DNA from: a virus
Taxonomy: Duplodnaviria; Heunggongvirae; Uroviricota; Caudoviricetes
Direction: 5' to 3' (one strand)
Length of the DNA stretch: 64,000 nucleotides
Virus record (IMG/VR): IMGVR_UViG_2526164662_000021
Span: 1 to 64,000 of that record
This document shows, one piece after another, positions 2,765-59,782 of the stretch (position 1 is its first letter; each line of letters begins with the position of its first letter). Position numbers and translations under genes: made by a program. The notes under the pieces are model-generated. The model was not told the origin of the DNA, made no database searches, and was given only the letters and a program-made list of their open reading frames with translations.

Positions 2765-3406
2765 ATGGATAAGAAAATATGCGTTGTTTCAATGAGCGTC
2801 GGCAAACCGGCGTCAATGACTGCTGCATGGATCAACAATGAGCTGATAATGGCTGAGCGGACCAGCTACCCTGAACGCCGCCGCGATATGGAACTCCAGC
2901 TGCTGCGCGAATTGCGAGAAAAAGAGGAAAAGGGTTTTATCGTGCTGGTGGAAGAGGAAAACAGCTTTATTACCGGTCGAGTTGGCCAGCGTGTAAGGTT
3001 GCGTGATCCCTTCATGAACGGCAGACCGGTACTGATTGAAGCAATGCAGATTTACAAGGAATTGGAACGCCAGAAAGCGATCAAGTTACCGCGCAAGGAA
3101 TCCGGCAAATACATCCTTCACCAAAGCATCTTCGATTCCGAACACGATAAAAAAGGCGATGAATTTTTCAACATCAACTGGAGCGAAATAACGACAGAGC
3201 ATGTTCTGACGTTACTATGTTGCTTTGCGACGGAATACAACAACGTTGCCAGCGCCGACTACATCAGGGCAATGGCTGGAGAAGTTGAAGCCCGCCAGGA
3301 ACCATCGTTACTAAGTCCACTTATTAACATAATTCTGGGTACCCAGACACTGGAACAAAAAAAAGTGCCGAAAGGGGTATTAACAGGCAAGCATAATTAT
3401 TTCTAA
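2765..3406 (+). CDS. mat: Hypothetical protein, position of P1 mat (maturation control)
   Basis: Synteny after ref; start placed at first ATG (MDKKICVV), the longer ORF begins at a GTG; no motif recognised. Confidence 0.5.
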   Translation: MDKKICVVSMSVGKPASMTAAWINNELIMAERTSYPERRRDMELQLLRELREKEEKGFIVLVEEENSFITGRVGQRVRLRDPFMNGRPVLIEAMQIYKELERQKAIKLPRKESGKYILHQSIFDSEHDKKGDEFFNINWSEITTEHVLTLLCCFATEYNNVASADYIRAMAGEVEARQEPSLLSPLINIILGTQTLEQKKVPKGVLTGKHNYF

Positions 3407-3571
3407 TAATTTATAGTGGGGACTTTTGATGGTGTAAAACCCCATGAATTATTATTTTTTAGTTTTTTGATTCTATTTTTTTTGCATTACCCGTCATAAA
3501 AATGAGCTTGCTTACATAATAGAAAATTATTTTATCAACACTATTACAACAAACGATTATCACTGATAACA

Positions 3572-3597
3572 TGAGTCCTTTGAAAACAAAGGACTCA
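3572..3597 (+). promoter_or_regulatory. Perfect 11-bp stem hairpin covering the likely RBS of the GNAT gene
   Basis: TGAGTCCTTTG-aaaa-CAAAGGACTCA, ends 8 nt before the ATG at 3605. Confidence 0.5.
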
Positions 3598-3604
3598 CCA
3601 TACT

Positions 3605-4213
3605 ATGTCTAATACCTCGGCAAATGAAATTGTACCGCACTTACCGCTAATTTTCGAAAATGAAGCTAATGGGATTCTTCAGGATCTGGCCTATACTCCA
3701 TCGCTTATGGGGTTGATGATGTTCCCGACAGAAGAGGAGCTGAAAGCAGCGAGAAGCTACATAATTAACGTTTTTGAAGAGTGTTACCGAGCCGGTCATT
3801 TGCGCATTATGGGCTTTACTAATGAAGAAAACTTGTTCGGATACGCTTTAATCTTCGGACATCCATCGGGAAATTTTCCGTTGTACTGTCATAAAATATA
3901 TGTATATGAGCAATATCGTGGTAATGGACTTGGAAGTAATATACTGGCAGAAATACTTGCATTTCCAAATGAGGTCGCTTTGATTTGCCAGTCTGATTTG
4001 GTTCCTTTTTATGAATCAGCCGGAATGCACTTTAAAGGAAATTACACCACTCCATCAGTCGCCAATTTCAAAAAAACTCGCGGCATGTATGAGGGGCTTT
4101 GTTTGATGAGCACTGAAAAAAATGCAAACTCTAATGGTGTACCTATATTCATGCTGAACGATAACGATATTGATAACATCATACAGGCTATCGCATCATC
4201 GGCACCACGATAA
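3605..4213 (+). CDS. GNAT-family N-acetyltransferase (cargo gene in the slot where P1 has res/mod)
   Basis: 202 aa; GNAT motif A ...YVYEQYRGNGLGSNILAEIL...; AT-rich leader; no partner ORF. Confidence 0.75.
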   Translation: MSNTSANEIVPHLPLIFENEANGILQDLAYTPSLMGLMMFPTEEELKAARSYIINVFEECYRAGHLRIMGFTNEENLFGYALIFGHPSGNFPLYCHKIYVYEQYRGNGLGSNILAEILAFPNEVALICQSDLVPFYESAGMHFKGNYTTPSVANFKKTRGMYEGLCLMSTEKNANSNGVPIFMLNDNDIDNIIQAIASSAPR

Positions 4214-4295
4214 TATTAATAATTCATCTCGCCGCAGGAACTACAAACCAGTTGATTGTTTGTGAAACGCCCGGTGCAAACCGGGCCAACAAAAC

Positions 4296-14879: not shown

Positions 14880-15429
14880 TGACCAGCCCCGTCAGGCAAA
14901 GCTGGCGTTCTTTTTCACGGCGAATCTTTAAACCTCGCAAGGGCACGCCGTTACTGTTCACGAAATCAGGGAGATGGTTACACATATTCACCCATTCCCC
15001 TTTCTGCGCCCACTTGTGGATGGACGTTTCGACTCGCATGCCTCGCGCTTTGCTGTAGTAGGTCCGTAAACTATTGCATCCCATATTGAATGCCGCGCTT
15101 GTCATTGCGCTGAAGGCATTATCGGGCATGTCTTTGCCCCGGAAGTGCTGATTAATACAGCGTTCAGCGATCAGGATATTCTTTTCCCAATCAGCGGCGA
15201 TTTGCTGGTCGTTTTTTCGAACACCCGGTGTAACTCCGTGGGTATTGCCAATCCCGTCAGTCCACACCCCCGCCGGGCACATGTATGGATCACGTCGGCA
15301 ACCTTCAGCGTTTCCGATAAGCTCAAGCCCCGCCTGGTTGGTTCGCACATTGCCATTACCCATCACGATGGTAATCATCACCGCGATAGCGCAAATTGCA
15401 CCGCCTCCTGCGGCTGTTTTTCCCTTCAT
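14872..15429 (-). CDS. lyz: SAR endolysin (T4-lysozyme-like, GH24)
   Basis: 185 aa from ATG at 15429; N-terminal SAR-like segment MKGKTAAGGGAICAIAVMITIV; catalytic region ELIGNAEGCRRDPYMCPAGVWTDGIGNT. Confidence 0.88.
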   Translation of the reverse strand: MKGKTAAGGGAICAIAVMITIVMGNGNVRTNQAGLELIGNAEGCRRDPYMCPAGVWTDGIGNTHGVTPGVRKNDQQIAADWEKNILIAERCINQHFRGKDMPDNAFSAMTSAAFNMGCNSLRTYYSKARGMRVETSIHKWAQKGEWVNMCNHLPDFVNSNGVPLRGLKIRREKERQLCLTGLVNE

Positions 15430-15562
15430 AAAGACCTCATAAGCGAATTTTTTACGCTCCAGGACAAACACCCATTCACAGCCAATACCGACTGACTCGA
15501 TCCCTTTAGAAGGCACAGGATAATGCAAATCACTTGTTAGCTACGTTTCAAAGATATACATT

Positions 15563-15579
15563 ATTGCTCTAATTAATTT
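15563..15579 (+). promoter_or_regulatory. C1 repressor operator-like site (ATTGCTCTAATTAATTT) upstream of ssb
   Basis: Consensus match 20 bp upstream of ssb start. Confidence 0.65.
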
Positions 15580-15598
15580 ATTTTATTAGGTAAGATAA

Positions 15599-16087
15599 GT
15601 GGCACAACGCGGTGTAAACAAAGTCATCCTGATTGGTACCCTGGGGCAAGACCCGGAGATCAGGTATATACCAAATGGCGGAGCGGTCGGAAGACTCAGC
15701 ATCGCAACGAATGAATCATGGCGCGACAAGCAAACGGGCCAACAGAAAGAGCAAACAGAATGGCATAGAGTCGTTTTGTTCGGGAAACTTGCTGAAATTG
15801 CGAGTGAGTATTTACGAAAAGGTTCTCAGGTCTACATCGAAGGGAAACTTAAAACCCGTAAGTGGACAGATGACGCCGGTGTAGAACGTTACACGACGGA
15901 AATTATCGTCAGCCAGGGCGGAACTATGCAAATGATCGGCGCCCGCCGCGACGATTCACAGTCCTCAAATGGCTGGGGGCAATCAAACCAACCTCAAAAC
16001 CACCAGCAATACAGCGGTGGCGGCAAACCTCAGAGCAGCGCCAATAACGAACCTCCAATGGACTTTGACGACGATATTCCGTTTTAG
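15599..16087 (+). CDS. ssb: Single-stranded DNA-binding protein
   Basis: OB-fold N-terminus [19 protein letters not shown], Gly/Gln-rich linker, acidic tail DFDDDIPF; GTG start. Confidence 0.95.
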
Positions 16088-16127
16088 AGTTAACTTGTGA
16101 GTTATTTGTAAATAGTTCATACACAGG

Positions 16128-16152
16128 CCCCTGTTAATACAGGGGATTTTTA
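16128..16152 (+). terminator. Intrinsic terminator after ssb
   Basis: CCCCTGT-taat-ACAGGGG followed by ATTTTTATTT. Confidence 0.65.
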
Positions 16153-16335
16153 TTTCTAGTAACTATAAGAGGTGTTAATTATTAATTGACAATCTTTAGT
16201 GTTTCGCGCACCTTGCAAGTATCCAATATTTACTGATTGTGGACGCATAAAGAAGATCCACAGCGTTACAAATTTGTATTTCTTTCTTCAGCAATTAAGC
16301 AGGCGACTTGCTCTATCCTGCCCAAAGGAACACGT

Positions 16336-17691
16336 ATGACACACTGCAAAGAAAATACTTGGTATGAGCGTCAAGGGTACAATACCACCCGCCCGAATGA
16401 GATAAGGTCGGAGTATGAACGTGATCTTTCCCGGTTAATCCACTCTTCCGCTTTTAGGAGATTACAATCGAAGACGCAGGTGTTGGGATTGGGCGAAAGC
16501 GATTTCTACCGTACGCGTCTAACTCACTCTATGGAAGTAGCGCAAATTGGCGGCGGTATCTTGTCTCAGTTGTCTAAGCGCGATACAGATGAGGGGGGTA
16601 AATTCTTACCTGACCCAAGCCTGATGCAGGCTATCTGCCTTGCTCATGATATAGGACATCCCCCCTTCGGTCATGGTGGTGAGGTCGCACTAAACTACTG
16701 CATGAGATCCTATGGCGGCTTTGAAGGTAACGGGCAGACACTGCGTATACTCTCCAAACTGGATAAGTACACCGAAACCAATGGGCTGGATCCCACCCGT
16801 AGACTTATTTTAGGCGTACTGAAATATCCAGCAAGCTATTCAGAGGTCGTCAATGAGAGGGCTTACAGCCAGTTACAGCCAAGAAGCAATGAGTGGTTGT
16901 TTAAATCATCCGAATTTAAGCCCCCGAAATGTTACCTGGACTCTGAGGAGAACACTGTTAGATTCGCACTCCAACCTTTTGATAGTGATGATGTTAAGTT
17001 ATTCAAAACGGTAAAATCTACCGCGTTGAATAAGCACAAGGAAACAATATATAAAGCACTGGATACAACGATTATGGACTTGGCTGATGAGATATCCTAC
17101 TCACTCCATGATCTTGAAGACGCAATTTCTCTGAAGATGATCGACAAAAAAATGTGGGAGGAGCACTTCGAGGACAAATCCCATTTATTTGCAGCTTGCC
17201 AATGCGACTCGTTTAATCTAAAAGCCGATGATGTAGCTGAAAAACTGTTCGGCGAAAGTTATCTACGCAAGGAGTGCATAGGGACACTTGTTCATCTGAT
17301 GATCACTAGCGTTAAGCTTGAAGTGCAGAACTCTGATTTCAAAAGTAAAATTTTACGCTATAAAGTGGCACTTCCTGCCGCGGTAGAAGAGTTACGTAAA
17401 GCCATTTTTGAGCTGGTTAGGAACAAAGTTATTCAGCACGAAAACGTCCAACTATTAGAGTTCAAAGGTCAGAAACTGATTGTGGAACTATTCAATGTAC
17501 TGGCAAATGACCCAATACGTTTTCTCCCGACAGAAACTCGAAAGAAATATAATCAAGAGGAAGCAAAAGGTGATGATAAAAAAATGCGCGTCATTTGCGA
17601 CTATGTTTCAGGCATGACAGATGATTACGCTACTCGACTGTATGAGAAAATATTTGTACCGAGAAAAGGCTCTATTTTTGATAGACTCTGA
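16336..17691 (+). CDS. dgt: dGTP triphosphohydrolase-like HD-domain protein (Dgt family)
   Basis: Motifs RTRLTHSMEVAQIGG and HDIGHPPFGHGGE typical of dGTPases; start set at ATG 16336 with AAGGAA RBS; AT-rich islet. Confidence 0.85.
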   Translation: MTHCKENTWYERQGYNTTRPNEIRSEYERDLSRLIHSSAFRRLQSKTQVLGLGESDFYRTRLTHSMEVAQIGGGILSQLSKRDTDEGGKFLPDPSLMQAICLAHDIGHPPFGHGGEVALNYCMRSYGGFEGNGQTLRILSKLDKYTETNGLDPTRRLILGVLKYPASYSEVVNERAYSQLQPRSNEWLFKSSEFKPPKCYLDSEENTVRFALQPFDSDDVKLFKTVKSTALNKHKETIYKALDTTIMDLADEISYSLHDLEDAISLKMIDKKMWEEHFEDKSHLFAACQCDSFNLKADDVAEKLFGESYLRKECIGTLVHLMITSVKLEVQNSDFKSKILRYKVALPAAVEELRKAIFELVRNKVIQHENVQLLEFKGQKLIVELFNVLANDPIRFLPTETRKKYNQEEAKGDDKKMRVICDYVSGMTDDYATRLYEKIFVPRKGSIFDRL

Positions 17692-17858
17692 TTTTTTTCT
17701 ATTATATAGTACGTAGCCGGGTTCCAGAACCGCATAAAATTAGATCTGGATATAATTCATTTAATTATCTGTTATATGCCAAACATAACGATATATAATA
17801 GTGGATTAGATGTTACAACTTGACGCAGAATAAATAGCTTTTATTGGCGCATGATGCA

Positions 17859-17882
17859 AACCCCGCAATGAAGCGGGGTTTT
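17859..17882 (+). terminator. Intrinsic terminator downstream of the dGTPase gene
   Basis: AACCCCGC-aatgaa-GCGGGGTT followed by TT. Confidence 0.55.
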
Positions 17883-17898
17883 AACTGTGGTAAATGAG

Positions 17899-18234
17899 TT
17901 ATAATCTTTTAATCAGGCTCTCAATATTAGTTGGTTCAAAGTAATGCTTATTAACCTCTCCATTTATGAGGAAACCGTCTTTTAGTAGTCGGTCTAGCTC
18001 ACGCTCTGCTTCTTTGTTGAACATACCTGGATATATTCTCTTGTACAACTGAAACGTACCATTCATATTCCTGTAAGCATTCTCAGCAATTTCAATGGAG
18101 ATTTCATTTCCGGCGTTAAATACAGGAATGAATATCTCAAGAATATCATTCTTTAACTTCTGTTTAAGTTTCTTTTTTTCAACAATATTAGAATAAAAGA
18201 TCCTAAAAAAAATGTGCAGATACCAGGAAGCCAA
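17899..18234 (-). CDS. Hypothetical protein (111 aa), convergent with dGTPase
   Basis: AT-rich ORF with TTG start; no motif recognised; may not be coding. Confidence 0.25.
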   Translation of the reverse strand: MASWYLHIFFRIFYSNIVEKKKLKQKLKNDILEIFIPVFNAGNEISIEIAENAYRNMNGTFQLYKRIYPGMFNKEAERELDRLLKDGFLINGEVNKHYFEPTNIESLIKRL

Positions 18235-18472
18235 TTATTAACGAAAACCTCAGACAAAGCGTCCACTATCTTACTCCAGAGTTAAGATTGATTCTCATAA
18301 CGCACAAACTCCGTTCAAGGCGATTTTTATATTACAAACTATACATAAACGCTGATCAATATCTCCAGATTTTGTGTGCCTGTGCATGAATATGCACTAA
18401 TCATAATCGACCAGAACTTCCGTTAATCGCTAAACTCGAACGATTCTAGCCACATAGACGATCTGTTAGTAT

Positions 18473-18781
18473 CTAATATACAAACTGATCCACATGATCA
18501 CCCAAATCATCGTCGTCGTCCTCATCGCCACCCTCTACTGCTGGCCAATCAACAAACCAGCCAGCGTAAAGATGCAGCGTTCGGAGAACATCACTTGCGG
18601 GAGCATCAAGGGTGTTAACGAATCCCATATAGCTATTGGGATTTGCCCCAGCTATGGCTTCAGCGATCATGTCCTCGGTAATGTCACCGGAGATAATGCT
18701 TAAACGCCCGGAAACTTCTTCATTATCATCAAATTCGATAATGGCATCTCCGCCTAATGGCGCTGCGATTTTAATCTGCAT
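18473..18781 (-). CDS. Hypothetical acidic protein at the position of P1 hxr
   Basis: 102-aa ORF overlapping ddrB 3' end; Asp-rich C-terminus; synteny only. Confidence 0.45.
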   Translation of the reverse strand: MQIKIAAPLGGDAIIEFDDNEEVSGRLSIISGDITEDMIAEAIAGANPNSYMGFVNTLDAPASDVLRTLHLYAGWFVDWPAVEGGDEDDDDDLGDHVDQFVY

Positions 18782-21758
18782 TATTTAGCTCCTTTGCCAC
18801 ACCTAATAACAGTTCCAGCAATCCGTCACCATTCATCAGTGATGCGGCAGCGGCCTCTTTGTCATGATACAACTGAAGAGCCATAGAGAATACTTCCGTT
18901 GCTGACGTTTTGGAAATAGTCGGTGATTTCTGCCGAATTTTCCCGGTGTTACTTACTGAGGCTGGCGGGTATACCTTCGCCATATAAATATTACTCAATC
19001 GAGATCTGAAGCACCATTCAGGCTTGCCACGCCCACCGATATTGACGAAAGATGGCTTATCCCCTTCAACATTGGCCTTCAGGAATGACCGGGCTTTCTC
19101 TAACAAACCAGGGTTACTGTACTCAAGATGATGACCCAGCTCGTGCCACAGTGCACTTGCATTTTCATCGTTCAAATTGACAGCAACAACACCATTAAGA
19201 TTTGCATATGCCCTTCCCTGGTGGTGAACTACCTTTGATAAGGTCGATATTTTCCCGCCGGTCAGGCGATAAATATCAGCAAGTTCCTTGCGCAGGTCTA
19301 TCCCACCATTCTGTCCAGCGCGGACTTCTTCCACTTCTTCTGTGATAAAAGAGTCGGCCCACTCAAGAGCTTTTTCTTCAGATACGGATGAGTTTGCGAT
19401 CGCACTGTTCATGGCAGATAACACTTTCTCGTGGACCGAACCCATACTTCGCTGATTCATTTGCCAGCGTGTCTGCGGGTTATATGAGAATCGCTTAAGT
19501 AGTTGGTCAAGCTGCTCAAGTTCTTCTTCACTGACATACTTTTTAGCCTCACCAATAATGCCAGGGAGAATATTGCCGTTAGGATTAAACGCTCGCGAAA
19601 GGAAGAGTTTCAGCGCCCCCATGCCCTCCGATGCTTCAATATCACCAATAACCCGGTTAACAATGGCCGCACTCTTCGGATTAGCATCCGCCAACGCTCT
19701 GGCTACGATTTGCAGGGACGATACGACCTCACGCTGCATATCAGTCCTGATCTCATCAATAAACTCTGGCGTTATGCCGTGCTCTTTAAGGATATCCCGG
19801 CCTTCCGCCGTTACCCCATCGATATCACCGACATGTTTATTAACACGACTTTGCAATGCCTTAAATGCCTTCAGAATTCCACGGGCATCATCCGCTTTAC
19901 TAACGGCCTTCCTGAATGCTGGCAAGAAGTCTGAGTTAACCTCATTTTGTTGATCGGCCCACTGAATGGAGGCTTCTTTCATCTCGTCCAGAGTCAGATC
20001 ACCCAACGCGGTATGGTCTGTGAATATGAGCGATAACCTCTGAACCATTTCTGCCAATGGTGATGCTGATTGCGCCGCGCTAAGGAATGCTTTCACTCTG
20101 GTTGGGCGAATGGAAAACCAGTCAATAGCTGGTGGCATATCTCCGTTTTTTATCGCCTGCGCTATCTCATCAAAGCCGTCGCGCCCAAGGGAGGATGCGT
20201 GATTTAACAATCCGCGAAGTAACGAATTGCTGATACCGAATAATCGGCACCATTTTTTCACGTCGGCAACAGGCATTCGAACAAAATGCGCAAGCACTTG
20301 TACAAGCTGTTCATCCTGGGGATCTGTGCGGGAAAGCAGCCTGATCAGATGAATAATGTCTTTGATGCCGGATGCCCGATGTAATAGCAAACTGGTATAC
20401 GGAGCAACACCGTTGTAACTACCGCCGGAAACGGACTCGAAAAGACCGCCGGATATCCCTTGCATGCCTTCGTTTTCCAGTTCCTGAGACACCTGGCGAA
20501 GGATATCCTGTAACGACACATCGCCGCCGCCAAACATATCCCCCAGCGCCTGGCCCTGGTGCTGTAACTCATCATTGATACGTTGAGCCATCAACTTAAA
20601 GGCGGTGGCCATACGCTTCGCGCTACGGTTATTCGCGACGATGAACAACGCGAGTGCTTTCACTTCCGGGGCCGTTTCGCTGAACATATCCCCCTGAGCA
20701 ATAACATCGGTAATATGCTGGCCTGACTCCTTCGATTGCCTTACCAGGTCTACCGCATCTTTCAATGCCTCCAGCGCCTTTTTATCGAGGCTATCCGCTG
20801 TCTCAATGCCATCAACAATAGTTGTCACAGCCTGCTTGTGCGCTTCTCCTGATAAAGCCTGCATCTGGACAAAATCATTGGCTGCCGCATTAAGCGCCGT
20901 CAGAACATTACGCATATCCGGATCAGGTTCTTCTGCAACCATCCTTACCAAGCGCGCATCCTTATATGCCTTGGCAAAGATCGCGTTTTGTATACGGTCT
21001 ACAAGTTGCCGTGTTGGTCGCCCATCTTCAGTTACAAGGCCAGCCGCCTGTGTGGCACCAACTTGCGTCATAAATCCGCGAATAAACGCGTCATTACTGC
21101 GGCTAAGCAGATCTCCACTTTCTGACGGGTTAAACAACGCCATCATCGCCGGTGTTATGCTGTCGGCATCAACAAAAGCCTTTTCACTGGCTGCCATTTC
21201 CTGGAGATCAGAAATATTTGAGTCCTTGGCAAACTGAACACGGTCAACCTTCGTTAACCGGCGGCGCACCAGTACCGGAGCCGTCATTGATTCAACCTTT
21301 TCAGGCCGTATGCCGAATTCGGTCGCATGTTCAATCAGGTACTCCCGATACCGATCCGCATTACCGTCCTGATAGGCTTTAATGATCCCCATGGTCCGCC
21401 CATTACCTGACTCAACGGCATTGTCCTCACCAATTATTGGCGCGCCATGGCTGGATAAACCGGAATCGGTAAGCTGGGCAGGACGCAAATCCTTGGATAT
21501 CTGGTTGACCTGAAGAAGGCTGGATGCGCGGGTCCGGTCGCGCGGCTGAAGTTCCTGGGGATAGTCTGGATTAATTTTCCCATCCAGAGTATTGGATACC
21601 AAAAGAACTGAGGCATCGACGATATCAAACGCTGTTTTTACCTCGTCTCCCTTCGCTGTCACCACATACGAAACCCGCCCATAATCGGGCAGGTTCTTTA
21701 GCAGCTCGATCAGCGTTTCTATGCTGGTGGCCATTACCACCTGATCGCTTAAGCTCAT
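18771..21758 (-). CDS. ddrB: DdrB-like Dar-system head protein
   Basis: 995-aa ORF downstream of ddrA/darA in one operon; contains an HELGHH (HExxH) motif near the C-terminus. Confidence 0.65.
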   Translation of the reverse strand: MSLSDQVVMATSIETLIELLKNLPDYGRVSYVVTAKGDEVKTAFDIVDASVLLVSNTLDGKINPDYPQELQPRDRTRASSLLQVNQISKDLRPAQLTDSGLSSHGAPIIGEDNAVESGNGRTMGIIKAYQDGNADRYREYLIEHATEFGIRPEKVESMTAPVLVRRRLTKVDRVQFAKDSNISDLQEMAASEKAFVDADSITPAMMALFNPSESGDLLSRSNDAFIRGFMTQVGATQAAGLVTEDGRPTRQLVDRIQNAIFAKAYKDARLVRMVAEEPDPDMRNVLTALNAAANDFVQMQALSGEAHKQAVTTIVDGIETADSLDKKALEALKDAVDLVRQSKESGQHITDVIAQGDMFSETAPEVKALALFIVANNRSAKRMATAFKLMAQRINDELQHQGQALGDMFGGGDVSLQDILRQVSQELENEGMQGISGGLFESVSGGSYNGVAPYTSLLLHRASGIKDIIHLIRLLSRTDPQDEQLVQVLAHFVRMPVADVKKWCRLFGISNSLLRGLLNHASSLGRDGFDEIAQAIKNGDMPPAIDWFSIRPTRVKAFLSAAQSASPLAEMVQRLSLIFTDHTALGDLTLDEMKEASIQWADQQNEVNSDFLPAFRKAVSKADDARGILKAFKALQSRVNKHVGDIDGVTAEGRDILKEHGITPEFIDEIRTDMQREVVSSLQIVARALADANPKSAAIVNRVIGDIEASEGMGALKLFLSRAFNPNGNILPGIIGEAKKYVSEEELEQLDQLLKRFSYNPQTRWQMNQRSMGSVHEKVLSAMNSAIANSSVSEEKALEWADSFITEEVEEVRAGQNGGIDLRKELADIYRLTGGKISTLSKVVHHQGRAYANLNGVVAVNLNDENASALWHELGHHLEYSNPGLLEKARSFLKANVEGDKPSFVNIGGRGKPEWCFRSRLSNIYMAKVYPPASVSNTGKIRQKSPTISKTSATEVFSMALQLYHDKEAAAASLMNGDGLLELLLGVAKELNNAD

Positions 21759-46953: not shown

Positions 46954-46970
46954 ATTGCTCTAATCTGGAG
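46954..46970 (+). promoter_or_regulatory. Weak C1 operator-like half match (ATTGCTCTAATCTGGAG)
   Basis: First 11 nt match the consensus, remainder diverges. Confidence 0.3.
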
Positions 46971-47212
46971 TCACCTGGCGTTTTCAGTTTGAGGTCGGAG
47001 ATGCAATCTGATTTTTTACAGTTAGCGATCGCTTTTGCAGGGCATCTTTGAGACATATCCATATATAAAAACCCAAAGCCAGATCAAAACTTGTACTGAT
47101 AAAAACACAGCTAACCATCACAACTTGTAACGTTTATAATGAGTAAAAGAGTGATACATTGCTACTTTTACATATTTTTGACTCAATTCATGGATAGTAA
47201 TGGAGATGCATA

Positions 47213-48268
47213 ATGACTTATGCTGGCACACAAACAGCAGATAACGCCGGGGATACCATGAAATCGTATGCTATTTGGAATAATAAAGGTGGCGTAGGAA
47301 AGACCTACTTATCTTTCGCTATGGCCTGTGAATACGCAAGGCAAAATCCAGAAAAGCGTATTATTTTTGCAGATATGTGTCCGCAGGCTAACTTATCTGA
47401 AATATTGCTCGGCGGTAACGGTACTGGTGCTGCTAACCTCGCGAGCTTAATTCAACAACGAAAAACTGTCGGTGGGTACTTTGACAGAAGAACTCGCAGC
47501 CCCCACATGCTTACCGGTTCAGAAACAAGTTTCTTAATTCATGTCTCTGAAATTAACGGGCATGTCCCTGACAATGTATTTTTGATTGCAGGCGACCCAA
47601 GCCTGGAAGTTCAGGCGCAAGTAATCAATCAGTTAAGCAGCGTAAACTTACCAGTTGACTCATGGAAAAGCATCCACCTGTGGCTACGAGATTTGCTTGT
47701 TGCATGTGCACAACAACAAGGTATCGAAGAAACCATTTGCTTTATTGATTGCAACCCCAGTTTCTCTGCCTATACCGAACTATCACTGATAGCAGCAAAT
47801 GCAATTATAATACCTTGCTCAAGTGATGGTTCTTCGGCTCGAGCAGTGGATAACCTAAGCCAGTTGGTTTATGGCGTTGGAGTACAAAACGATTATCGTT
47901 CTGTTAACTTTTACGATCGGTGTCAACAGTTTGGTCTAGCGGTTCCTGTCATTCATTCTCTAGTTTTTAATCGTTCGACAGAGTATGACAAACGAGCAAG
48001 TAAAGCGTTTTCGGCAATGTTCGACGAAATCAGGGATAGAGCTGAAAATCTGCGGACGAATAAACCAACAGCGTTCCAAGGCGGAAATTTAAAAACGTTT
48101 ACTGTGCCAGATAACCATTCCGTAGCTATAGTATCTTCCCATCTAGGAAGACCTCTATTTGATATAAAACCCGGCAGATATCAGATCCATGACACTGAGC
48201 CACAAATCAATAATGAACCATTAGAAAGATATGGTGCAGCAATTGAACGTCTTGTTCAGAGTTTATAG
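47213..48268 (+). CDS. ParA/MinD-like P-loop ATPase (orphan)
   Basis: Deviant Walker A KGGVGKT near N-terminus; ATG with GGAGA RBS; no ParB or centromere adjacent. Confidence 0.7.
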   Translation: MTYAGTQTADNAGDTMKSYAIWNNKGGVGKTYLSFAMACEYARQNPEKRIIFADMCPQANLSEILLGGNGTGAANLASLIQQRKTVGGYFDRRTRSPHMLTGSETSFLIHVSEINGHVPDNVFLIAGDPSLEVQAQVINQLSSVNLPVDSWKSIHLWLRDLLVACAQQQGIEETICFIDCNPSFSAYTELSLIAANAIIIPCSSDGSSARAVDNLSQLVYGVGVQNDYRSVNFYDRCQQFGLAVPVIHSLVFNRSTEYDKRASKAFSAMFDEIRDRAENLRTNKPTAFQGGNLKTFTVPDNHSVAIVSSHLGRPLFDIKPGRYQIHDTEPQINNEPLERYGAAIERLVQSL

Positions 48269-48298
48269 TGGCTTATCTCAGTCATAATGGCTGAAAAA

Positions 48299-48328
48299 AG
48301 GCTGCAACAGAGGTTGCAGCCTTTTTTA
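48299..48328. terminator. Bidirectional intrinsic terminator
   Basis: AGGCTGCAAC-agag-GTTGCAGCCT flanked by A6 and T6. Confidence 0.65.
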
Positions 48329-48338
48329 TAAAATTACA

Positions 48339-48626
48339 TTAACAGATTGGTAGCGATAGTAAATTATTATTCCATCGATTGTCTGCATACGTTCTAATAA
48401 ACTGCCTTCCACCATTACCAGGATTAACGACCCCAACTTCTACACGATTACCTGCATTATCTGTTACATAGAATGTATGGAGATTATTATCAATAGCATT
48501 AATCACCTGCTCAACAGTCCATTTCCCATTGCCAGTATTAAATTGAGGACTTCCCACATGAGTAATATGCTCATGGATTGATTGCGAGCCGGAGAGGGTA
48601 ATGCAAGTAATGCGTACATCAGCCAT
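48339..48626 (-). CDS. DUF3892-like small protein
   Basis: 95 aa from ATG 48626 with AAGGAAG RBS; MADVRITCI...HITHVG...NNLLSLP pattern recalled for DUF3892. Confidence 0.5.
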   Translation of the reverse strand: MADVRITCITLSGSQSIHEHITHVGSPQFNTGNGKWTVEQVINAIDNNLHTFYVTDNAGNRVEVGVVNPGNGGRQFIRTYADNRWNNNLLSLPIC

Positions 48627-48916
48627 ATATACTTCCTTTATTCTATAGATTATAGGAATTGTGCCGCCTAAAAAACAAACAGCACAATAACAATAAAGAA
48701 ACATACACACAACAAAAACTAACGCTATTTATTGATAGATTTGCCTGATGAATACTAGCTCTCTTTGCTACCTAGCACTCAAACAAATAACAGAAGAAAG
48801 CCCCAGATAACATTACGCGTCCGGCAAGACGCTTAACATTAATCTGAGGCCACATCTATGCTTAGCATACGTAGATTAACCCTCTCCCCTTTTAAGGGGT
48901 AAGGAATTTTTTACTG

Positions 48917-49513
48917 CTATGCCGCCTTTCCAGTTATGGATTCAGCGACCAGAACAACCCCATGCTTACTTCGATCTGGGTGTTCACTCCATATCTCGGA
49001 TTCAGGAATACTTACCCCGTCATAGCAAACACGTTCGCCGTCAAACGGGTAATACTGAGCGGCATCGGTGTCGAGGATAAACACTTTTAGCTCGGAAGAG
49101 CGACGGGCGATGTGTTGCCAAAGAGCTTTTCCACCTTCGTATTGCTCATTATCACTGAGCAAAACAACACCAGCTTTTGAGGCTACGGTTTCGTAAACAA
49201 AAGTAGCTAAACCTACATCCCGGACAGTTCCATCAACCACAATACCTTCAATCTGGGCAACATCGCTATCCTCCCAAAACTTCCTTACCAGTACGCCTTC
49301 AAGCTGCGGACGACGTTGAAGTTCAAGAGTAGCGACAACCTTATGGCGCATATCACCATCGATAACAGAAGGCGCAGCCTCTATTACAGCTGCAAATGGG
49401 GTTTTGGAATCCCATATAACCTGGTAAAGCACACCCTGGATGGTAACTCCGTCCAGGATCGAAAATCGACGAGCGACAGTACCCGGGGAGTACGACATTG
49501 GAATCACAGCCAT
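48917..49513 (-). CDS. Hypothetical protein (198 aa)
   Basis: ATG at 49513 with AAAGGGGGA RBS; no motif recognised. Confidence 0.45.
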   Translation of the reverse strand: MAVIPMSYSPGTVARRFSILDGVTIQGVLYQVIWDSKTPFAAVIEAAPSVIDGDMRHKVVATLELQRRPQLEGVLVRKFWEDSDVAQIEGIVVDGTVRDVGLATFVYETVASKAGVVLLSDNEQYEGGKALWQHIARRSSELKVFILDTDAAQYYPFDGERVCYDGVSIPESEIWSEHPDRSKHGVVLVAESITGKAA

Positions 49514-49641
49514 TTTAGAGTCCCCCTTTAACAGTACAGGCACAAACATCTACCTCAATAATTGTAGTTTATTAGAACATTAATAATCTAACATAAAACT
49601 CCAGACAATGTTATCGATGCATTTTTATATAAAATAGTTAT

Positions 49642-49663
49642 AAAAAAAGCTCCCGTAGGAGCT
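49642..49663 (-). terminator. Intrinsic terminator (minus strand)
   Basis: AGCTCC-cgta-GGAGCT with T7 following on the minus strand. Confidence 0.55.
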
Positions 49664-55139: not shown

Positions 55140-55226
55140 AAGGTGAAATCGTGGCGATTTCACCTTGAAATTTTAGAGGGATTTACTTTAAAAACAGTAG
55201 TTTAATAGTGAAATTTGAATGGCGAA
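55140..55226. other. parS: parS partition centromere
   Basis: Box A heptamers GTGAAAT/ATTTCAC (55143-55149, 55157-55163, 55208-55214) and box B hexamers TGGCGA (55152-55157, 55220-55225) just downstream of parB. Confidence 0.8.
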
Positions 55227-55229
55227 AGT

Positions 55230-56231
55230 TTAAGGCTTCGGCTTTTTATCGAGGCTCTTTCTAAGGATATGCCCAATCATCCTGTCGAGTTCTTCCTGTA
55301 GCTCTTTTGAAAGTCGATTAAACTCATAAGAAAATGCACGGCCTTTCACGCGCTTCCTTGCAAAGCGATCCTTGTCCTCAAATTTCCATAATTCAGTAAC
55401 TACGGACTTATCTTTAGAACCTTTATCCGTGAGTAGTGAGGCTTCCTTTGTTATCAAGCGCAGGATTTTATTTTTAACTTCATCTTCGGCCATTTCTTCA
55501 ATGGATAAGATGTCGTTTATTTCCGGGGATATATTTTGAATAAGCTGATCAAACTCTAAATTCTTGTTCCCCATTTCGTCGCCAACAGCACAAAGCGTTT
55601 TGTAGTCCGAAAAGGTTAATTCCGACTGCACAGGGAAAAGGGCGACTAATTCTTCCGGAGCACTCGCTGCCTGGAGAGCACGCGTGACCTTCGCCTGAGA
55701 CAGCCCTTCTTTGGCTGCAATATCCTTCTGACTCATCCCATCATTTTTCATTCGCATCAAACGCAGACCTATTTCTCGAATGCTGTGCTGCAATGCTGTC
55801 TGAACGTCTTTCGCTAAATTTTGCGCTTCCTGAACGCTGATCTCCTGGTCCGTGACTAAAACCCGCAACCCTACGTTCTCTAAGATGGCAGAAGCTCGAC
55901 GCCGGGAACCATCCAAAATTTCAATTTTCCCTGTTGCCCGTCTAACACCTATTGCAGGGTAAAATTGCTGATGCTTAATAGTGCTTCGGATACTTTTTAA
56001 TGATTTTGGCGTAAGAGATGCCTGGTCACGCCCGTTGTTATGCTGATCAACAAAGGTATCGCTTTCTACCTGGTTCGGAGGTATTACCTCTTCAATAAAT
56101 GTGGCCTGGCGACCAGTTGATAACTTGAATACCTGCTCGACTCGATCGCCAGAGGCTGAAGAACTATCAAATCCGCTTAATATTGAAGGATTAAGGGTTC
56201 GCCCAATTGTTGGTCTGTTTTTCTTTGACAT
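55230..56231 (-). CDS. parB: ParB partition protein
   Basis: 333 aa as in P1 ParB; downstream of parA; parS follows. Confidence 0.9.
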   Translation of the reverse strand: MSKKNRPTIGRTLNPSILSGFDSSSASGDRVEQVFKLSTGRQATFIEEVIPPNQVESDTFVDQHNNGRDQASLTPKSLKSIRSTIKHQQFYPAIGVRRATGKIEILDGSRRRASAILENVGLRVLVTDQEISVQEAQNLAKDVQTALQHSIREIGLRLMRMKNDGMSQKDIAAKEGLSQAKVTRALQAASAPEELVALFPVQSELTFSDYKTLCAVGDEMGNKNLEFDQLIQNISPEINDILSIEEMAEDEVKNKILRLITKEASLLTDKGSKDKSVVTELWKFEDKDRFARKRVKGRAFSYEFNRLSKELQEELDRMIGHILRKSLDKKPKP

Positions 56232-56247
56232 GGGGGTTTCTTACTCC

Positions 56248-57444
56248 TCAGTTAGATCTGATAAATTCAATACGGTCAAAAACTGCTTTAGCAAAATCTT
56301 CCGCGGCAATTCGCGCGTTCTTCAATGCATCAGCACTACCAACATACGTTGCCGGGTTAGCTGAAATAACAGTGTCAAAAGACTCGCCGCAACGTTCAAA
56401 ACCGTCAAGGCGAGGGAGGACGACATCGAGCATATCCCCACCGAACACTTCTTTAGCCAGGCTATGGCAATACTTATGATCTGCCTTGTTACTCAACTTG
56501 GACATAAAACCAATGTTAGTCGCAAGCTGGCACTCGCAGCCTTCATCCGAAATGAGTTTCACCAACTCAGGAAGGCGGGCAACGTATTTAAGCGATGAGT
56601 GGAAATCGACAGTTGCTGGCGGCAGAGGTGTAAACAGTATATTGGCCGAGGCCAAAGCATTTTTCAGGAAGGCGTCAAGGTGAGGACCACTATCAACGAG
56701 GATAAAATCATAATCGCTCTTCAGCTTATCAATCACATTTTCTTTCAGGACAGCATGGATGTTCTGACCCGGTAGATGCTCATTGCACAGCTCTCTCCAA
56801 TCGGATGCAATAAAGGCATCGTCAATCGACGCAGGCATAACGTCAACCCCAGGTACAACAGAAGGAACAATAAACTCCTCTAACAGCTCTTCACGGCTTA
56901 CATTCTGCAACATAGCCTGTGCAGATGTTGCGTTTACGATACCAATAGAGTGTTTATGGCTTAAAAACATCGTTGCTGAAGATTGCGGATCAAGGTCAAT
57001 AACCAGAATCCTTAAATCTTCCATCAGAAGATGAGGGTGAGCACGCATTGCATGCGCCAGAGAAACCGTCGATACAGTTTTTGACACACCGCCTTTAAGA
57101 TTGGAGATGAAAATCACATACGCTTCGCTGTAGCGATCCCGGTATTTTGGCACTCCGCGATGTTCATATATGTCAATGATGTTCTGAATTGACATCGCAT
57201 ATTTCATTGAAGAGCCAGCAGGGCGCTTATCGAAAACATAACCCTTTTCTTCCATTTCACTTACAGCATAGTCAACGTTCGCTCGAGTCAGTAGAGGCAA
57301 TTTTGCCAGTGCCGCTTTCGCATAGACCTGGTAAAACTCGTTCGCGTGTAGCTCATCCTTTTGCAACTGTACTTGTTCAGTCAGAACATTGAGCATTCTG
57401 TTTGCTCTTTGAGCAACCTTGTGAAGCTGGCTGGAATCACTCAT
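56248..57444 (-). CDS. parA: ParA partition ATPase
   Basis: 398 aa (large ParA with N-terminal regulatory domain); Walker A KGGVSKT. Confidence 0.9.
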   Translation of the reverse strand: MSDSSQLHKVAQRANRMLNVLTEQVQLQKDELHANEFYQVYAKAALAKLPLLTRANVDYAVSEMEEKGYVFDKRPAGSSMKYAMSIQNIIDIYEHRGVPKYRDRYSEAYVIFISNLKGGVSKTVSTVSLAHAMRAHPHLLMEDLRILVIDLDPQSSATMFLSHKHSIGIVNATSAQAMLQNVSREELLEEFIVPSVVPGVDVMPASIDDAFIASDWRELCNEHLPGQNIHAVLKENVIDKLKSDYDFILVDSGPHLDAFLKNALASANILFTPLPPATVDFHSSLKYVARLPELVKLISDEGCECQLATNIGFMSKLSNKADHKYCHSLAKEVFGGDMLDVVLPRLDGFERCGESFDTVISANPATYVGSADALKNARIAAEDFAKAVFDRIEFIRSN

Positions 57445-57584
57445 CGAAAGTCATCCTTTATGCTGTATTTTTGAATTTAATTAAAAATGCTGCATAAAAT
57501 AATAATGTATGCGCAGATGCTTGTACATAGCATTCTCTGCATGTTTGATTCATTTTTCACGATTGAGAGTTGCAAGGCGGGCAC

Positions 57585-57605
57585 AAAAAAGCCCCGTTCA
57601 GGGGC
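57585..57605 (-). terminator. Intrinsic terminator after the T5orf172 gene
   Basis: GCCCC-tgaac-GGGGC followed by T6 on the minus strand, 8 nt after the stop. Confidence 0.6.
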
Positions 57606-57612
57606 ATCAGTG

Positions 57613-58422
57613 TTATTTGTTAAGAGCTGCGAATAATCGTTCGAAATCGATAGTATATATAGCACGCGTAAGCGCCGGAAGTTCAGCCTCAAAGTACCCG
57701 TGTCGATCGTAAAAGAAGGGACCAAAGAGCGAGGAATGTTGGATTCTACTTCGCCCCAGCCCGGACACACAGTTAAGTCCATTACCGGATAAAAGGCTAA
57801 AAAACTTCTCTGGATTATCGTGGTAAAGCTGGGAATCAATGGTGGCAGTTAACTCTTCCATAGGGAAGCACACCCGCCCAGTCTCCCAGGAATATTTAGT
57901 CCGAAGCGTAAACATCGCTTTCAGCAATTCACATTGAGCGCGGATCGCGTCAGGTTCATAGCCAGATATGGAGACATAAGCCACATCCCTCATTCCTGCG
58001 TCATCTTTGAAAGTCACGATAGAAGTAACATCCAGTTCTTTTTCGAAAGAGCGAGCAGCATCTACTGGACGCTGAAGTAAATCATTCGACTTAATCCGCT
58101 CAAGAATCCCTCCCCACATATCATTTAGGTATTCGATATGAGCCAAAACCTTATCAAGACACTCTCGTGTAAACCATTCAGTATGCCCGCCACCGGCGCT
58201 TTTCTCCCACGGCGCATTCCAGGGGAAAAAGGTTGCGTGTAAAGCCCGCTCAAGATTAACCATTGCCAAACGCGTACCACGATAGACCCGTGAAAGCGCA
58301 AAATCGGGACTCACTTGTAGCCCTTTAAACCGTGCCAATGGACCACATGAAATGCCGATTTTAAAAGTATCTCCGTTCTCCGGCACCAGAACGTAGAGGT
58401 AGTGTTGTTTCTCTTCTTGCAT
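57613..58422 (-). CDS. T5orf172 (GIY-YIG-like) domain protein with C-terminal domain of unknown function
   Basis: 269 aa; N-terminal YLYVL...GDTFKIGIS...RFKGLQ...LERALH...TEWF pattern; own terminator. Confidence 0.6.
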   Translation of the reverse strand: MQEEKQHYLYVLVPENGDTFKIGISCGPLARFKGLQVSPDFALSRVYRGTRLAMVNLERALHATFFPWNAPWEKSAGGGHTEWFTRECLDKVLAHIEYLNDMWGGILERIKSNDLLQRPVDAARSFEKELDVTSIVTFKDDAGMRDVAYVSISGYEPDAIRAQCELLKAMFTLRTKYSWETGRVCFPMEELTATIDSQLYHDNPEKFFSLLSGNGLNCVSGLGRSRIQHSSLFGPFFYDRHGYFEAELPALTRAIYTIDFERLFAALNK

Positions 58423-58457
58423 ATCAATACCACTGCTTGATGAGAACCGCGCAAATG

Positions 58458-58714
58458 TTGACTATGCGCGAAAGTTAATGTGAATAGTTGACTATGCGCG
58501 ATGTGACTACAGTCAAAAGTTGACTGTAGTCGATTTAACTCCACCAAAAATCGACTATGTAAGATATTGTCGGGAGAAACGTTGACTATACGCGATGAAA
58601 TGACCCTAAAAGCCATCTCAATAGCGACTTGCAGAATATTGACGCCAGCAAAAATCCACCAGCGTCAACGAATGTCGCCTATAGTCAACTTCTCGCTATC
58701 GCATATAGTCAATA
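58458..58714. repeat. incA-like iteron array downstream of repA
   Basis: At least 8 copies of TTGACTATGCGCGA-like repeats in both orientations. Confidence 0.8.
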
Positions 58715-59599: not shown

Positions 59600-59677
59600 C
59601 GTGGTTTCTCCATATGTGGCGCGGCCTGGCGTCATCTGGATTGCAGTTATCAACAACTGTGAATAGTCAGGCTCTAA

Positions 59678-59780: not shown

Positions 59781-59782
59781 TT

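What the first reader, a model, noticed from the sequence alone, without database searches (positions are those of the whole stretch)
16088..18472. AT-rich islet carrying a dGTPase where P1 carries IS1
Between ssb and the hxr/ddrB end of the darA operon, where P1 has isaA-IS1-isaB, this element has a ~2.4 kb AT-rich insert. It has its own flanking terminators (16128-16152, 17859-17882), a 12-bp perfect palindrome TACAAATTTGTA (16267-16278) about 60 bp upstream of the start, and a 452-aa HD-domain protein with dGTPase motifs (RTRLTHSMEVAQIGG, HDIGHPPFGHGGE). dGTP triphosphohydrolases are an established anti-phage defence family that depletes dGTP; here one is cargo of a temperate phage, possibly for superinfection exclusion.
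Basis: partly seen in the sequence, partly recalled or inferred. Interest (0 to 1): 0.65.

Follow-up and report, generated by a model that had tools for sequence, protein, structure and literature searches.

The report
Anti-phage dGTPase cargo in P1-like prophage

Summary
Window 16088-18472 lies exactly between the ssb stop and the hxr stop, where P1 has isaA-IS1-isaB. It is 39.8% G+C against about 49% in the flanks. It encodes a 451-aa HD-domain dGTPase (16336-17691, +) and a convergent small ORF (17899-18234, -).

The dGTPase is identical to RefSeq WP_000148485.1, named 'anti-phage deoxyguanosine triphosphatase'. It scores 571.5 bits on NCBIfam NF041026 (cut-off 400) and 493 bits on the PADLOC dGTPase model. 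It is 58-60% identical to the tested Shewanella Sp-dGTPase (PDB 9P8W) and about 80% identical to the chromosomal E. coli lineage that includes the tested G177 enzyme. All catalytic residues are kept, and it is not the host dgt.

The same islet sits at the same junctions in 52 PLSDB plasmids and in 64 of 5426 complete E. coli genomes, about 13% of those with this P1-type backbone. A 2025 preprint already lists dGTPase among the defences of P1-like phage-plasmids.

The ssb-hxr gap is a cargo hotspot. The islet is a mosaic of two unrelated modules. The palindrome is no more than chance.

Most likely function: dGTP depletion that protects the lysogen from other phages. No experiment exists on this allele.

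Verdict: correct, ordinary, already known.

The parts
15599..16087 (+). ssb (P1 backbone, left flank). Its C1 operator-like site is at 15563-15579.
   Evidence: Pfam SSB, 136.7 bits. 95-98% identical to P1, P7 and SJ46 up to 16085-16091. The operator-like site has 1 mismatch to ATTGCTCTAATAAATTT.
16088..18472 (.). The 2385-bp cargo islet that replaces P1 isaA-IS1-isaB. It is a mosaic of two modules and has no terminal repeats.
   Evidence: No similarity to P1 over 16086-18473. 39.8% G+C. No flanking inverted or direct repeats of note. At least 99% identical in 52 plasmids.
16128..16152 (+). Terminator-like hairpin with a T-run after ssb. It lies inside the islet.
   Evidence: Found by the scanner. 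Folds at -12.9 kcal/mol, z = -2.8.
16267..16278 (.). 12-bp perfect palindrome TACAAATTTGTA. Not statistically notable.
   Evidence: 2 in the islet against 0.74 expected. It lies outside the stretch shared with the chromosomal homologue.
16278..17695 (+). Module A: the dGTPase gene plus 58 bp of leader, 79% identical in DNA to the chromosomal E. coli anti-phage dGTPase locus.
   Evidence: blastn against L005, strain ABWA45. Alignment of the leader, including an AAGGA ribosome-binding site 7 nt before the ATG.
16336..17691 (+). dGTPase, 451 aa, identical to WP_000148485.1. Metal and catalytic residues: H64, H104-D105, H113, E116, D251.
   Evidence: dN/dS of 0.12 against the chromosomal homologue.
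17858..17882 (.). G+C-rich hairpin between the two convergent genes, probably a two-way terminator.
   Evidence: Folds at -16.7 and -17.0 kcal/mol on the two strands, z = -3.8 and -4.3.
17899..18234 (-). Module B: small conserved ORF of unknown function. This is the 111-aa allele, identical to WP_244428495.1; the intact form is 122-132 aa with an N-terminal hydrophobic helix.
   Evidence: DNA over 17900-18326 is 80% identical to a Salmonella island. No Pfam, PADLOC or NCBIfam hit.
18201..18202 (.). 1-bp deletion (GATACC to GATCC) relative to L001 and L002. It shifts the frame of the N-terminus of the small ORF.
   Evidence: Pairwise alignment. The 111-aa allele forms a 54-member cluster, so it is a circulating allele and not a read error.
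18473..18781 (-). hxr (P1 backbone, right flank).
   Evidence: 95-97% identical to P1, P7 and SJ46 from 18474 onward. Annotated Hxr in P1.
18771..21758 (-). ddrB, at the end of the darA operon (P1 backbone).
   Evidence: 995-aa ORF. Colinear with P1 ddrB.

Best explanation
The insert is accessory cargo in the ssb-hxr cargo hotspot of a P1-like phage-plasmid. Its main gene encodes a stand-alone dGTP triphosphohydrolase of the Sp-dGTPase/Ec-dGTPase anti-phage family.

By homology, the enzyme binds a metal through H64, H104, D105 and D251, uses the H113/E116 dyad, and splits dGTP into deoxyguanosine and triphosphate. It probably acts as a hexamer, as Sp-dGTPase does.

If it is expressed from the prophage in the lysogen, it would starve an incoming lytic phage of dGTP. 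That would block the phage's DNA replication and protect both the host cell and the resident phage-plasmid.

Shown here:
- family membership;
- intact catalytic residues;
- purifying selection;
- fixed position in many P1-like elements.

Inferred:
- enzymatic activity and protection;
- expression in the lysogen (the terminator after the C1-controlled ssb suggests transcription separate from ssb, but no strong sigma-70 promoter was found);
- that P1 itself escapes. A possible reason is that P1 keeps using host RNA polymerase, whereas escape mutants of T7 map to genes that modify host RNA polymerase.

The neighbouring small ORF is an unrelated passenger module.
For: - Family models: NCBIfam NF041026 'anti-phage deoxyguanosine triphosphatase' at 571.5 bits (cut-off 400) over the full length, and PADLOC dGTPase at 493 bits. 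Pfam finds HD plus HD_assoc.
- Closest solved structure: PDB 9P8W at 530 bits. The Clover preprint's data statement identifies 9P8W as Shewanella putrefaciens dGTPase. Identity is 58-60% over 435-450 columns, above the 45% line that Tal et al. used for homologues enriched near defence genes.
- Relation to a tested E. coli enzyme: the protein is 80% identical to the chromosomal E. coli enzyme of ABWA45. That enzyme is 98.5% identical, over the 133 residues available, to the G177 enzyme that protected E. coli in Tal et al..
- Selection: dN/dS is 0.12 against that lineage.
- Recurrence: the gene is intact, at the same junctions, in 52 PLSDB plasmids and 64 complete E. coli genomes.
- Hotspot: the ssb-hxr gap holds other accessory genes in P1, P7, SJ46, RCS47 and 813R1.
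- Published experiments on relatives: mutating the HD motif of Sp-dGTPase (D101A) abolishes defence, and dGTP is depleted during T7 infection. Sp-dGTPase alone hydrolyses dGTP in vitro and forms a hexamer.
- Prior survey: DefenseFinder finds dGTPase on E. coli P1-like phage-plasmids.
Against: - No experiment exists on this allele. It is 80% identical to the nearest tested enzyme's lineage, not identical to it.
- Two of the six dGTPases cloned by Tal et al. gave no substantial protection, so family membership does not guarantee a phenotype.
- No convincing sigma-70 promoter lies between the ssb terminator and the ATG (and manual reading). Expression in the lysogen is therefore unproven.
- An enzyme that is active on its own in vitro should also hinder P1's own lytic replication. 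How that conflict is avoided is unknown.
Confidence: 0.8

Rival explanations
1. The enzyme serves the phage during its own lytic cycle or establishment. For example, it might throttle host or competitor DNA synthesis, or reshape dNTP pools for P1 replication, instead of defending the lysogen.
For: The gene lies directly downstream of ssb, a C1-repressed replication gene. No independent strong promoter was found, so read-through from Pssb after induction is conceivable.
Against: A stable terminator hairpin separates it from ssb. P1 itself needs dGTP. Only about 13% of P1-type backbones carry the gene, so it is dispensable for the lytic cycle. Its closest relatives are chromosomal defence genes.
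Confidence: 0.07
2. The dGTPase and the convergent small membrane-anchored ORF form a two-gene system, in which the small protein regulates or senses for the dGTPase, as CloB does for CloA in Clover.
For: The two genes travel together in all P1-borne copies. Regulated dGTPase systems with a partner gene do exist.
Against: Homologues of the small ORF in Salmonella, Yersinia, Marinomonas, Rheinheimera, Vibrio, Enterobacter and another enterobacterium are never next to a dGTPase. The chromosomal dGTPase homologue lacks the small ORF. The two modules have separate DNA ancestries. The small ORF is convergent to the dGTPase, is not a nucleotidyltransferase, and in this window is frameshifted at its N-terminus. 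Related dGTPases work alone.
Confidence: 0.04
3. It is a housekeeping-type regulator of the dNTP pool or mutation rate, or an inert passenger with no selected function on the phage-plasmid.
For: Bacterial dGTPases such as Dgt have non-defence roles. Some cloned family members gave no protection.
Against: It scores far below the Dgt equivalog cut-off (142.8 against 405) but above the anti-phage model cut-off. dN/dS is 0.12. It is intact in dozens of elements from several Escherichia species. It sits in a hotspot of accessory genes.
Confidence: 0.07

Closest known systems
Sp-dGTPase of Shewanella putrefaciens CN-32 (Tal et al., preprint 10.1101/2021.04.26.441389; crystal structure PDB 9P8W)
   Same: Same HD plus HD_assoc architecture and a similar length (451 against 462 aa). 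58-60% identity over almost the full length. Identical motif blocks RTRLTHSMEVAQIG and CLAHDIGHPPFGHGGEVALNYCMR, and the LAD-ISYSLHD block. Single-gene system.
   Different: About 40% of residues differ. The host and context differ: Shewanella (its genomic context was not examined here) against an Escherichia phage-plasmid. Activity, oligomeric state and phage range were not measured for the window protein.
Ec-dGTPase of E. coli G177 and the chromosomal E. coli lineage (WP_057061554.1 in strain ABWA45)
   Same: Nearest tested relative. 83.5% identity over the 133 residues of G177 that are available, and 80% over the full length to ABWA45. The 58-bp leader and ribosome-binding site are shared. 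Both carry the RefSeq name anti-phage dGTPase.
   Different: The chromosomal copy lies in an island next to DNA adenine methylase, 8-oxoguanine glycosylase and queC-like genes near yjcB. It has no small ORF and a different upstream region. The P1-borne copy has a different promoter region, with its own terminator and the palindrome.
E. coli housekeeping Dgt (PDB 4X9E and 6OIY; NCBIfam NF003429)
   Same: Same HD-domain dNTP triphosphohydrolase superfamily and the same chemistry.
   Different: Only a local N-terminal match of 88 bits. 142.8 bits against a cut-off of 405 on the Dgt equivalog. Not the host gene.
Clover (CloA dGTPase plus CloB nucleotidyltransferase; preprint 10.1101/2025.07.09.663793)
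   Same: An anti-phage dGTPase effector with the same HD and HE catalytic residues.
   Different: About 89 bits to CloA (9P8T). There is no nucleotidyltransferase gene in or beside the islet. CloA is an octamer and is inactive alone, whereas the Sp class is a hexamer and is active alone.
Octameric Vibrio dGTPase Vdg (PMC13519002; PDB 9VWA)
   Same: A defensive dGTPase.
   Different: 156 bits in two stretches and a shorter protein of 402 aa. It is a more distant branch than the Sp class.
The ssb-hxr variable locus of Punavirus (P1 isaA-IS1-isaB; P7 nmpC; RCS47 IS26-blaSHV-2; SJ46 Tad2-like gene plus isaA)
   Same: Same insertion point, bounded by the 3' ends of the convergent ssb and hxr genes.
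   Different: Different cargo. Here there is no insertion sequence and no transposon ends, so exchange by recombination in the conserved flanks is the likely route (inference).

Membership tests
Anti-phage dGTPase (Tal et al.; NCBIfam NF041026; PADLOC/DefenseFinder 'dGTPase') | HD phosphohydrolase domain plus C-terminal HD-associated domain, in a protein of more than 400 aa | tested here: met
   PF01966 HD (34 bits) and PF13286 HD_assoc (75.1 bits). 451 aa.
Anti-phage dGTPase (Tal et al.; NCBIfam NF041026; PADLOC/DefenseFinder 'dGTPase') | Score above the curated cut-off of the family model | tested here: met
   NF041026 at 571.5 bits against 400, covering model positions 1-425 of 425. NF003701 at 562.3 bits against 383. 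PADLOC PDLC02374 at 493.2 bits.
Anti-phage dGTPase (Tal et al.; NCBIfam NF041026; PADLOC/DefenseFinder 'dGTPase') | At least 45% identity to Sp-dGTPase over at least 90% of the length (the paper's line for homologues enriched near defence genes) | tested here: met
   58-60% identity over 435-450 aligned columns, query residues 16-451. The criterion is quoted.
Anti-phage dGTPase (Tal et al.; NCBIfam NF041026; PADLOC/DefenseFinder 'dGTPase') | Metal-binding H...HD...D and the catalytic H/E dyad are conserved | tested here: met
   H64, H104-D105, H113, E116 and D251 lie in blocks identical to 9P8W. D105 corresponds to Sp D101, whose mutation abolishes defence.
Anti-phage dGTPase (Tal et al.; NCBIfam NF041026; PADLOC/DefenseFinder 'dGTPase') | Location in a defence island or in the accessory region of a mobile element | tested here: met
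   It lies in the variable ssb-hxr cargo locus of a P1-like phage-plasmid. The chromosomal homologue lies in a variable island.
Anti-phage dGTPase (Tal et al.; NCBIfam NF041026; PADLOC/DefenseFinder 'dGTPase') | Hydrolyses dGTP to dG plus PPPi and lowers phage plating in a way that depends on the HD motif | not testable with these tools
   This needs an enzyme assay, LC-MS and plaque assays. Published only for Sp-dGTPase and three other homologues.
Housekeeping Dgt (NF003429 / PRK04926) | Score above the equivalog cut-off, with full-length similarity to E. coli Dgt | tested here: not met
   142.8 bits against 405, in three fragments. 88 bits to 4X9E, over query residues 13-124 only.
Clover (CloA-CloB) | An adjacent Pol-beta-type nucleotidyltransferase partner gene (CloB) | tested here: not met
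   The only neighbouring ORF is a 111-122-aa protein with no Pfam, PADLOC or NCBIfam hit. Similarity to CloA is 89 bits.
Transposon or insertion-sequence-borne cargo | Terminal inverted repeats, target-site duplication, and a transposase | tested here: not met
   No flanking repeats beyond chance-level 10-13-mers. No transposase ORF in 16088-18472.

The most novel reading that the evidence does not exclude
Two readings remain open, and both need experiments.

1. The small membrane-anchored ORF (17899-18234, -) may itself be an uncharacterised single-gene phage-exclusion or defence module. It has only 13 representatives at 50% identity among 1.84 billion proteins. In other genera it sits beside Mrr, SIR2_2, Eco57I-like, T5orf172 or anti-restriction genes. 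On this reading the islet is a two-defence cassette.

2. The prophage-borne dGTPase may tell the resident P1 from invaders because P1 never shuts off host transcription. That would make this a natural model for how a temperate phage tolerates its own nucleotide-depleting defence.
Probability: 0.12. Interest if true: 0.5.

Novelty: already known. Interest (0 to 1): 0.2.

Why it matters
It is one more documented case of a temperate phage-plasmid carrying a nucleotide-depletion defence in a fixed cargo hotspot. About one in eight E. coli P1-type elements in complete genomes has it. That matters for phage therapy and for P1-based tools, because such lysogens may resist T7-like and other lytic phages.

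One question is still open: how does a phage that must replicate its own 90-kb genome tolerate an enzyme that destroys dGTP? P1 lysogens with and without this islet would make that directly testable. The identification itself adds nothing new, since RefSeq and a 2025 survey already have it.

Tried and rejected
- Palindrome as an operator: rejected as evidence. 12-bp palindromes occur at or below the chance rate, and this one lies outside the region conserved with the chromosomal homologue.
- Promoter search: the sigma-70 scan found nothing between 16150 and 16336. By eye there is a perfect TTGACA at 16186-16191 but no acceptable -10, so no promoter is claimed.
- Transposon origin: no terminal repeats or target duplication.
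- Rfam scan of 15400-18900: only a GIR1 chance hit, 19 bits against a gathering score of 100.
- Small ORF function:
  - No Pfam, PADLOC or NCBIfam hit.
  - The AlphaFold model is of moderate confidence (pLDDT 71) and all-helical.
  - Foldseek against the PDB gave no match with E below 1.
  - A profile search of 1.84 billion representatives found only 13 relatives and no distant family.
- Partner hypothesis (small ORF with dGTPase): rejected after seven look-ups of genomic context.
- Other cargo at the hotspot (P1 IsaA and IsaB, the two 813R1 ORFs, the SJ46 ORFs): no PADLOC hits. Pfam gave only a Tad2-like domain in SJ46.
- Host dgt or a chimeric contig: rejected.
- Phage record vB_EcoM-673R5: it is a predicted prophage and not an isolated virion, and its paper does not mention the dGTPase.
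Full report
**1. What is there**

The window is a P1-like phage-plasmid. It is colinear with P1 at 95-98% identity from the cre end to dmt, apart from a few replaced segments. One replaced segment is 16086-18473.

Similarity to P1, P7, SJ46, 813R1 and MH422554 ends at 16085-16091, the stop codon of ssb. It resumes at 18474-18475, the stop codon of the convergently transcribed hxr. In P1 this gap holds isaA, IS1 and isaB.

The islet is 39.8% G+C, against 49.4% in both flanks and 47.2% for the window. The drop is concentrated in the non-coding parts, the 3' half of the dGTPase gene and the small ORF.

**2.

- The ORF runs from ATG 16336 to the stop at 17691 and encodes 451 aa, one fewer than stated. 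An AAGGA ribosome-binding site lies 7 nt upstream. The synthetic G177 gene of Tal et al. begins at the equivalent ATG.
- The hairpin after ssb (16128-16145 plus a T-run) is picked up by the scanner and is stable.
- The hairpin at 17858-17882 is stronger (-16.7 and -17.0 kcal/mol). It lies between the two convergent genes, with an A-run on one side and a T-run on the other, which suits a two-way terminator.
- The 12-bp palindrome is real but not informative. Perfect 12-mers of this kind are no more frequent than expected (12 in the window against about 17 expected). Half of simulated islets contain at least one. It also falls just outside the stretch conserved with the chromosomal homologue.
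- No convincing sigma-70 promoter was found upstream of the gene.

**3. Identity of the enzyme**

- Pfam finds HD and HD_assoc domains.
- NCBIfam NF041026 'anti-phage deoxyguanosine triphosphatase' scores 571.5 bits (cut-off 400) over the whole model. The housekeeping Dgt equivalog scores 142.8 bits (cut-off 405). The PADLOC dGTPase model scores 493 bits.
- The best solved structure is 9P8W at 530 bits. The Clover preprint's data statement identifies it as the Shewanella putrefaciens CN-32 dGTPase. Identity is 58-60% over nearly the full length.
- The metal ligands (H64, H104, D105, D251) and the H113/E116 dyad lie in blocks identical to 9P8W.
- Tal et al. showed several things for this family. 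Four of six cloned enzymes protected E. coli. Mutating D101 of Sp-dGTPase, which corresponds to D105 here, abolished defence. dGTP disappeared and deoxyguanosine rose during T7 infection. T7 escape mutants mapped to genes 5.7, 5.5 and 0.7, which act on host RNA polymerase.
- One protective enzyme came from E. coli G177. Its first 133 residues are 98.5% identical to a chromosomal E. coli dGTPase (strain ABWA45) and 83.5% identical to the window protein. Over the full length, the window protein is 80% identical to the ABWA45 enzyme.
- dN/dS between the two lineages is 0.12.
- The exact window sequence is RefSeq WP_000148485.1 and is already named 'anti-phage deoxyguanosine triphosphatase'.

**4. 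Not an artefact**

The whole islet recurs at 99% identity or more, at the same place, in several collections:
- 52 PLSDB plasmids of about 80-190 kb, mostly non-mobilizable. The one whose annotation was opened is IncY. Hosts are E. coli, E. albertii, E. fergusonii and one Cronobacter.
- The predicted prophage vB_EcoM-673R5.
- Plasmids of 64 of 5426 complete E. coli genomes.

The hxr-ddrB backbone is present in 480 of those genomes, so roughly 13% of such elements carry the islet. Eight chromosomes carry the 80%-identical homologue without the rest of the islet.

**5. Structure and origin of the islet**

The islet is a mosaic.
- 16278-17695 (the gene plus a 58-bp leader) matches the chromosomal dGTPase locus at 79%.
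- 17900-18326 (the small ORF plus about 90 bp upstream) matches a Salmonella chromosomal island at 80%.
- The remaining stretches (16088-16277, 17696-17899, 18327-18472) match nothing fetched.
- There are no terminal repeats and no transposase. Acquisition and spread through recombination in the conserved flanks is the likely route (inference).

The same gap holds other accessory genes in relatives:
- the porin gene nmpC in P7;
- two unknown ORFs in 813R1 and MH422554;
- a gene with a Tad2-like (anti-Thoeris) domain plus isaA in SJ46;
- an IS26-blaSHV-2 block in RCS47.

It is a general cargo hotspot between two convergent 3' ends.

**6. The small ORF**

The ORF at 17899-18234 (-) belongs to a real but narrow family.
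- There are 34 close clusters and only 13 representatives at 50% identity among 1.84 billion proteins.
- Members are 122-132 aa, with an N-terminal hydrophobic helix and an invariant KLxQKLKxDxLExFIPxFN core.
- In this window, a 1-bp deletion after 18201 shifts the frame of the N-terminus and leaves a 111-aa ORF. This allele is itself widespread, in a 54-member cluster, as WP_244428495.1.
- Its homologues sit beside different genes in every genus examined and never beside a dGTPase: anti-restriction, methylase and Eco57I-like genes; a polyvalent MuF protein; 5'-nucleotidase; Mrr, T5orf172 and HNH; SIR2_2 with a resolvase; and a Rep3 plasmid.
- No domain, defence-model or fold match was found.

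I treat it as an independent passenger of unknown function.

**7. Mechanism and its weak points**

The best-supported reading is dGTP depletion as a prophage-encoded defence for the lysogen, acting as in Sp-dGTPase. Two steps are inferred, not shown.

- Expression in the lysogen. ssb upstream is controlled by a C1 operator and is followed by a terminator inside the islet. This suggests separate transcription, but no promoter was identified.
- Compatibility with P1's own replication. Sp-dGTPase is active alone in vitro, so some form of control or tolerance must exist. P1's continued use of host RNA polymerase, in contrast with T7's shut-off that the escape mutants point to, is a possible reason. 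It is untested.

**8. Comparison and novelty**

The protein is a member of the stand-alone anti-phage dGTPase family. It is closer to the Sp and Ec enzymes than to Vdg (156 bits), CloA (89 bits) or Dgt (88 bits). It lacks the CloB partner that defines Clover.

A 2025 preprint that ran DefenseFinder on 846 P1-type contigs already states that E. coli P1-like phage-plasmids commonly carry dGTPase. Among 50,697 deposited phage genomes, only 673R5 has a close copy. This is probably because such elements are usually filed as plasmids (inference).

**9. Verdict**

The finding is correct and cleanly delimited, but it is ordinary and already recorded. Interest is low. What remains worth doing is experimental: protection, expression and self-tolerance.

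Noticed in passing
window 17899-18234 (-), with a 1-bp deletion after 18201: A small conserved ORF of unknown function. The intact form is 122-132 aa with an N-terminal hydrophobic helix. Here a 1-bp deletion shifts the frame at the N-terminus and gives a 111-aa allele (WP_244428495.1) that is itself common. The family is tiny: 13 representatives at 50% identity.
   Followed up: yes
L024:5001-5399, L029:5001-5384, L007:6001-6384, L011:6001-6399: Homologues of the small ORF lie beside defence-type or mobile-element genes that differ in every genus (Mrr_cat, T5orf172 and HNH; SIR2_2 with a resolvase; Antirestrict, N6_Mtase and Eco57I; an LPD/MuF polyvalent protein). It may be an unrecognised single-gene exclusion or defence module.
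   Followed up: partly
window 17678-17886 (+): A promoter-like site (TTGATA, 16 nt, TATTAT; 10 of 12 matches) lies right after the dGTPase stop. About 150 nt of AT-rich sequence follow, ending in the strong hairpin. The 177-nt stretch folds with z = -2.6. It could be a small RNA. There is no Rfam match, and no covariation can be tested because all copies are about 99% identical.
   Followed up: partly
window 3275-4291: In the mat-lxc interval, which in a res/mod-deleted P1 isolate (the comparison record) holds only two unnamed ORFs, this element has an unrelated 1-kb segment with a GNAT acetyltransferase ORF (3605-4213). No restriction-modification ORF of at least 70 aa was listed in this segment.
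   Followed up: partly
window 46965-49642: Another segment not shared with P1, downstream of repL in place of rlfA, rlfB and pmgF. It holds a ParA-like ATPase (47213-48268), a DUF3892 protein (48339-48710, -) and a 210-aa ORF (48917-49549, -). None has a PADLOC hit.
   Followed up: partly
window 55175-59795: The partition and replication region (parB, parA, repA) diverges from P1, with identity of about 65% or none. This fits a different incompatibility type. A near-identical plasmid is typed IncY.
   Followed up: no
L017:918-1763 (Salmonella phage SJ46): At the same ssb-hxr hotspot, SJ46 carries a 281-aa protein with a C-terminal Tad2-like (anti-Thoeris) domain next to isaA. The hotspot therefore holds anti-defence cargo in some relatives, as well as the defence gene found here.
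   Followed up: partly
L016:1091-2942 and L018:1086-2967: 813R1 and MH422554 carry a different two-gene cargo at this site (about 262 aa plus 356-364 aa, overlapping, one mis-annotated as 'terminase large subunit'). Neither has a Pfam or PADLOC hit.
   Followed up: partly
L006:5179-5892 (pTetA_020022 and at least five similar plasmids): In a subset of plasmids, similarity to the islet ends at window 18266. An IS1 sits directly upstream of the small ORF, followed by a truncated morphogenetic gene. This points to an IS1-mediated deletion of hxr and the dar region.
   Followed up: no
L001:3936-5289 (vB_EcoM-673R5): In this phage record the dGTPase is annotated as two fragments. The cause is single-base losses in G6 and C6 runs (window 16593 and 16660), which look like homopolymer sequencing errors and not a true pseudogene.
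   Followed up: partly
L005:3339-7515: The chromosomal E. coli homologue (ABWA45) lies next to a cluster annotated as PfkB kinase, 7-cyano-7-deazaguanine synthase, a dehydrogenase, 8-oxoguanine DNA glycosylase and DNA adenine methylase. This may be a guanine-modification or defence island.
   Followed up: no
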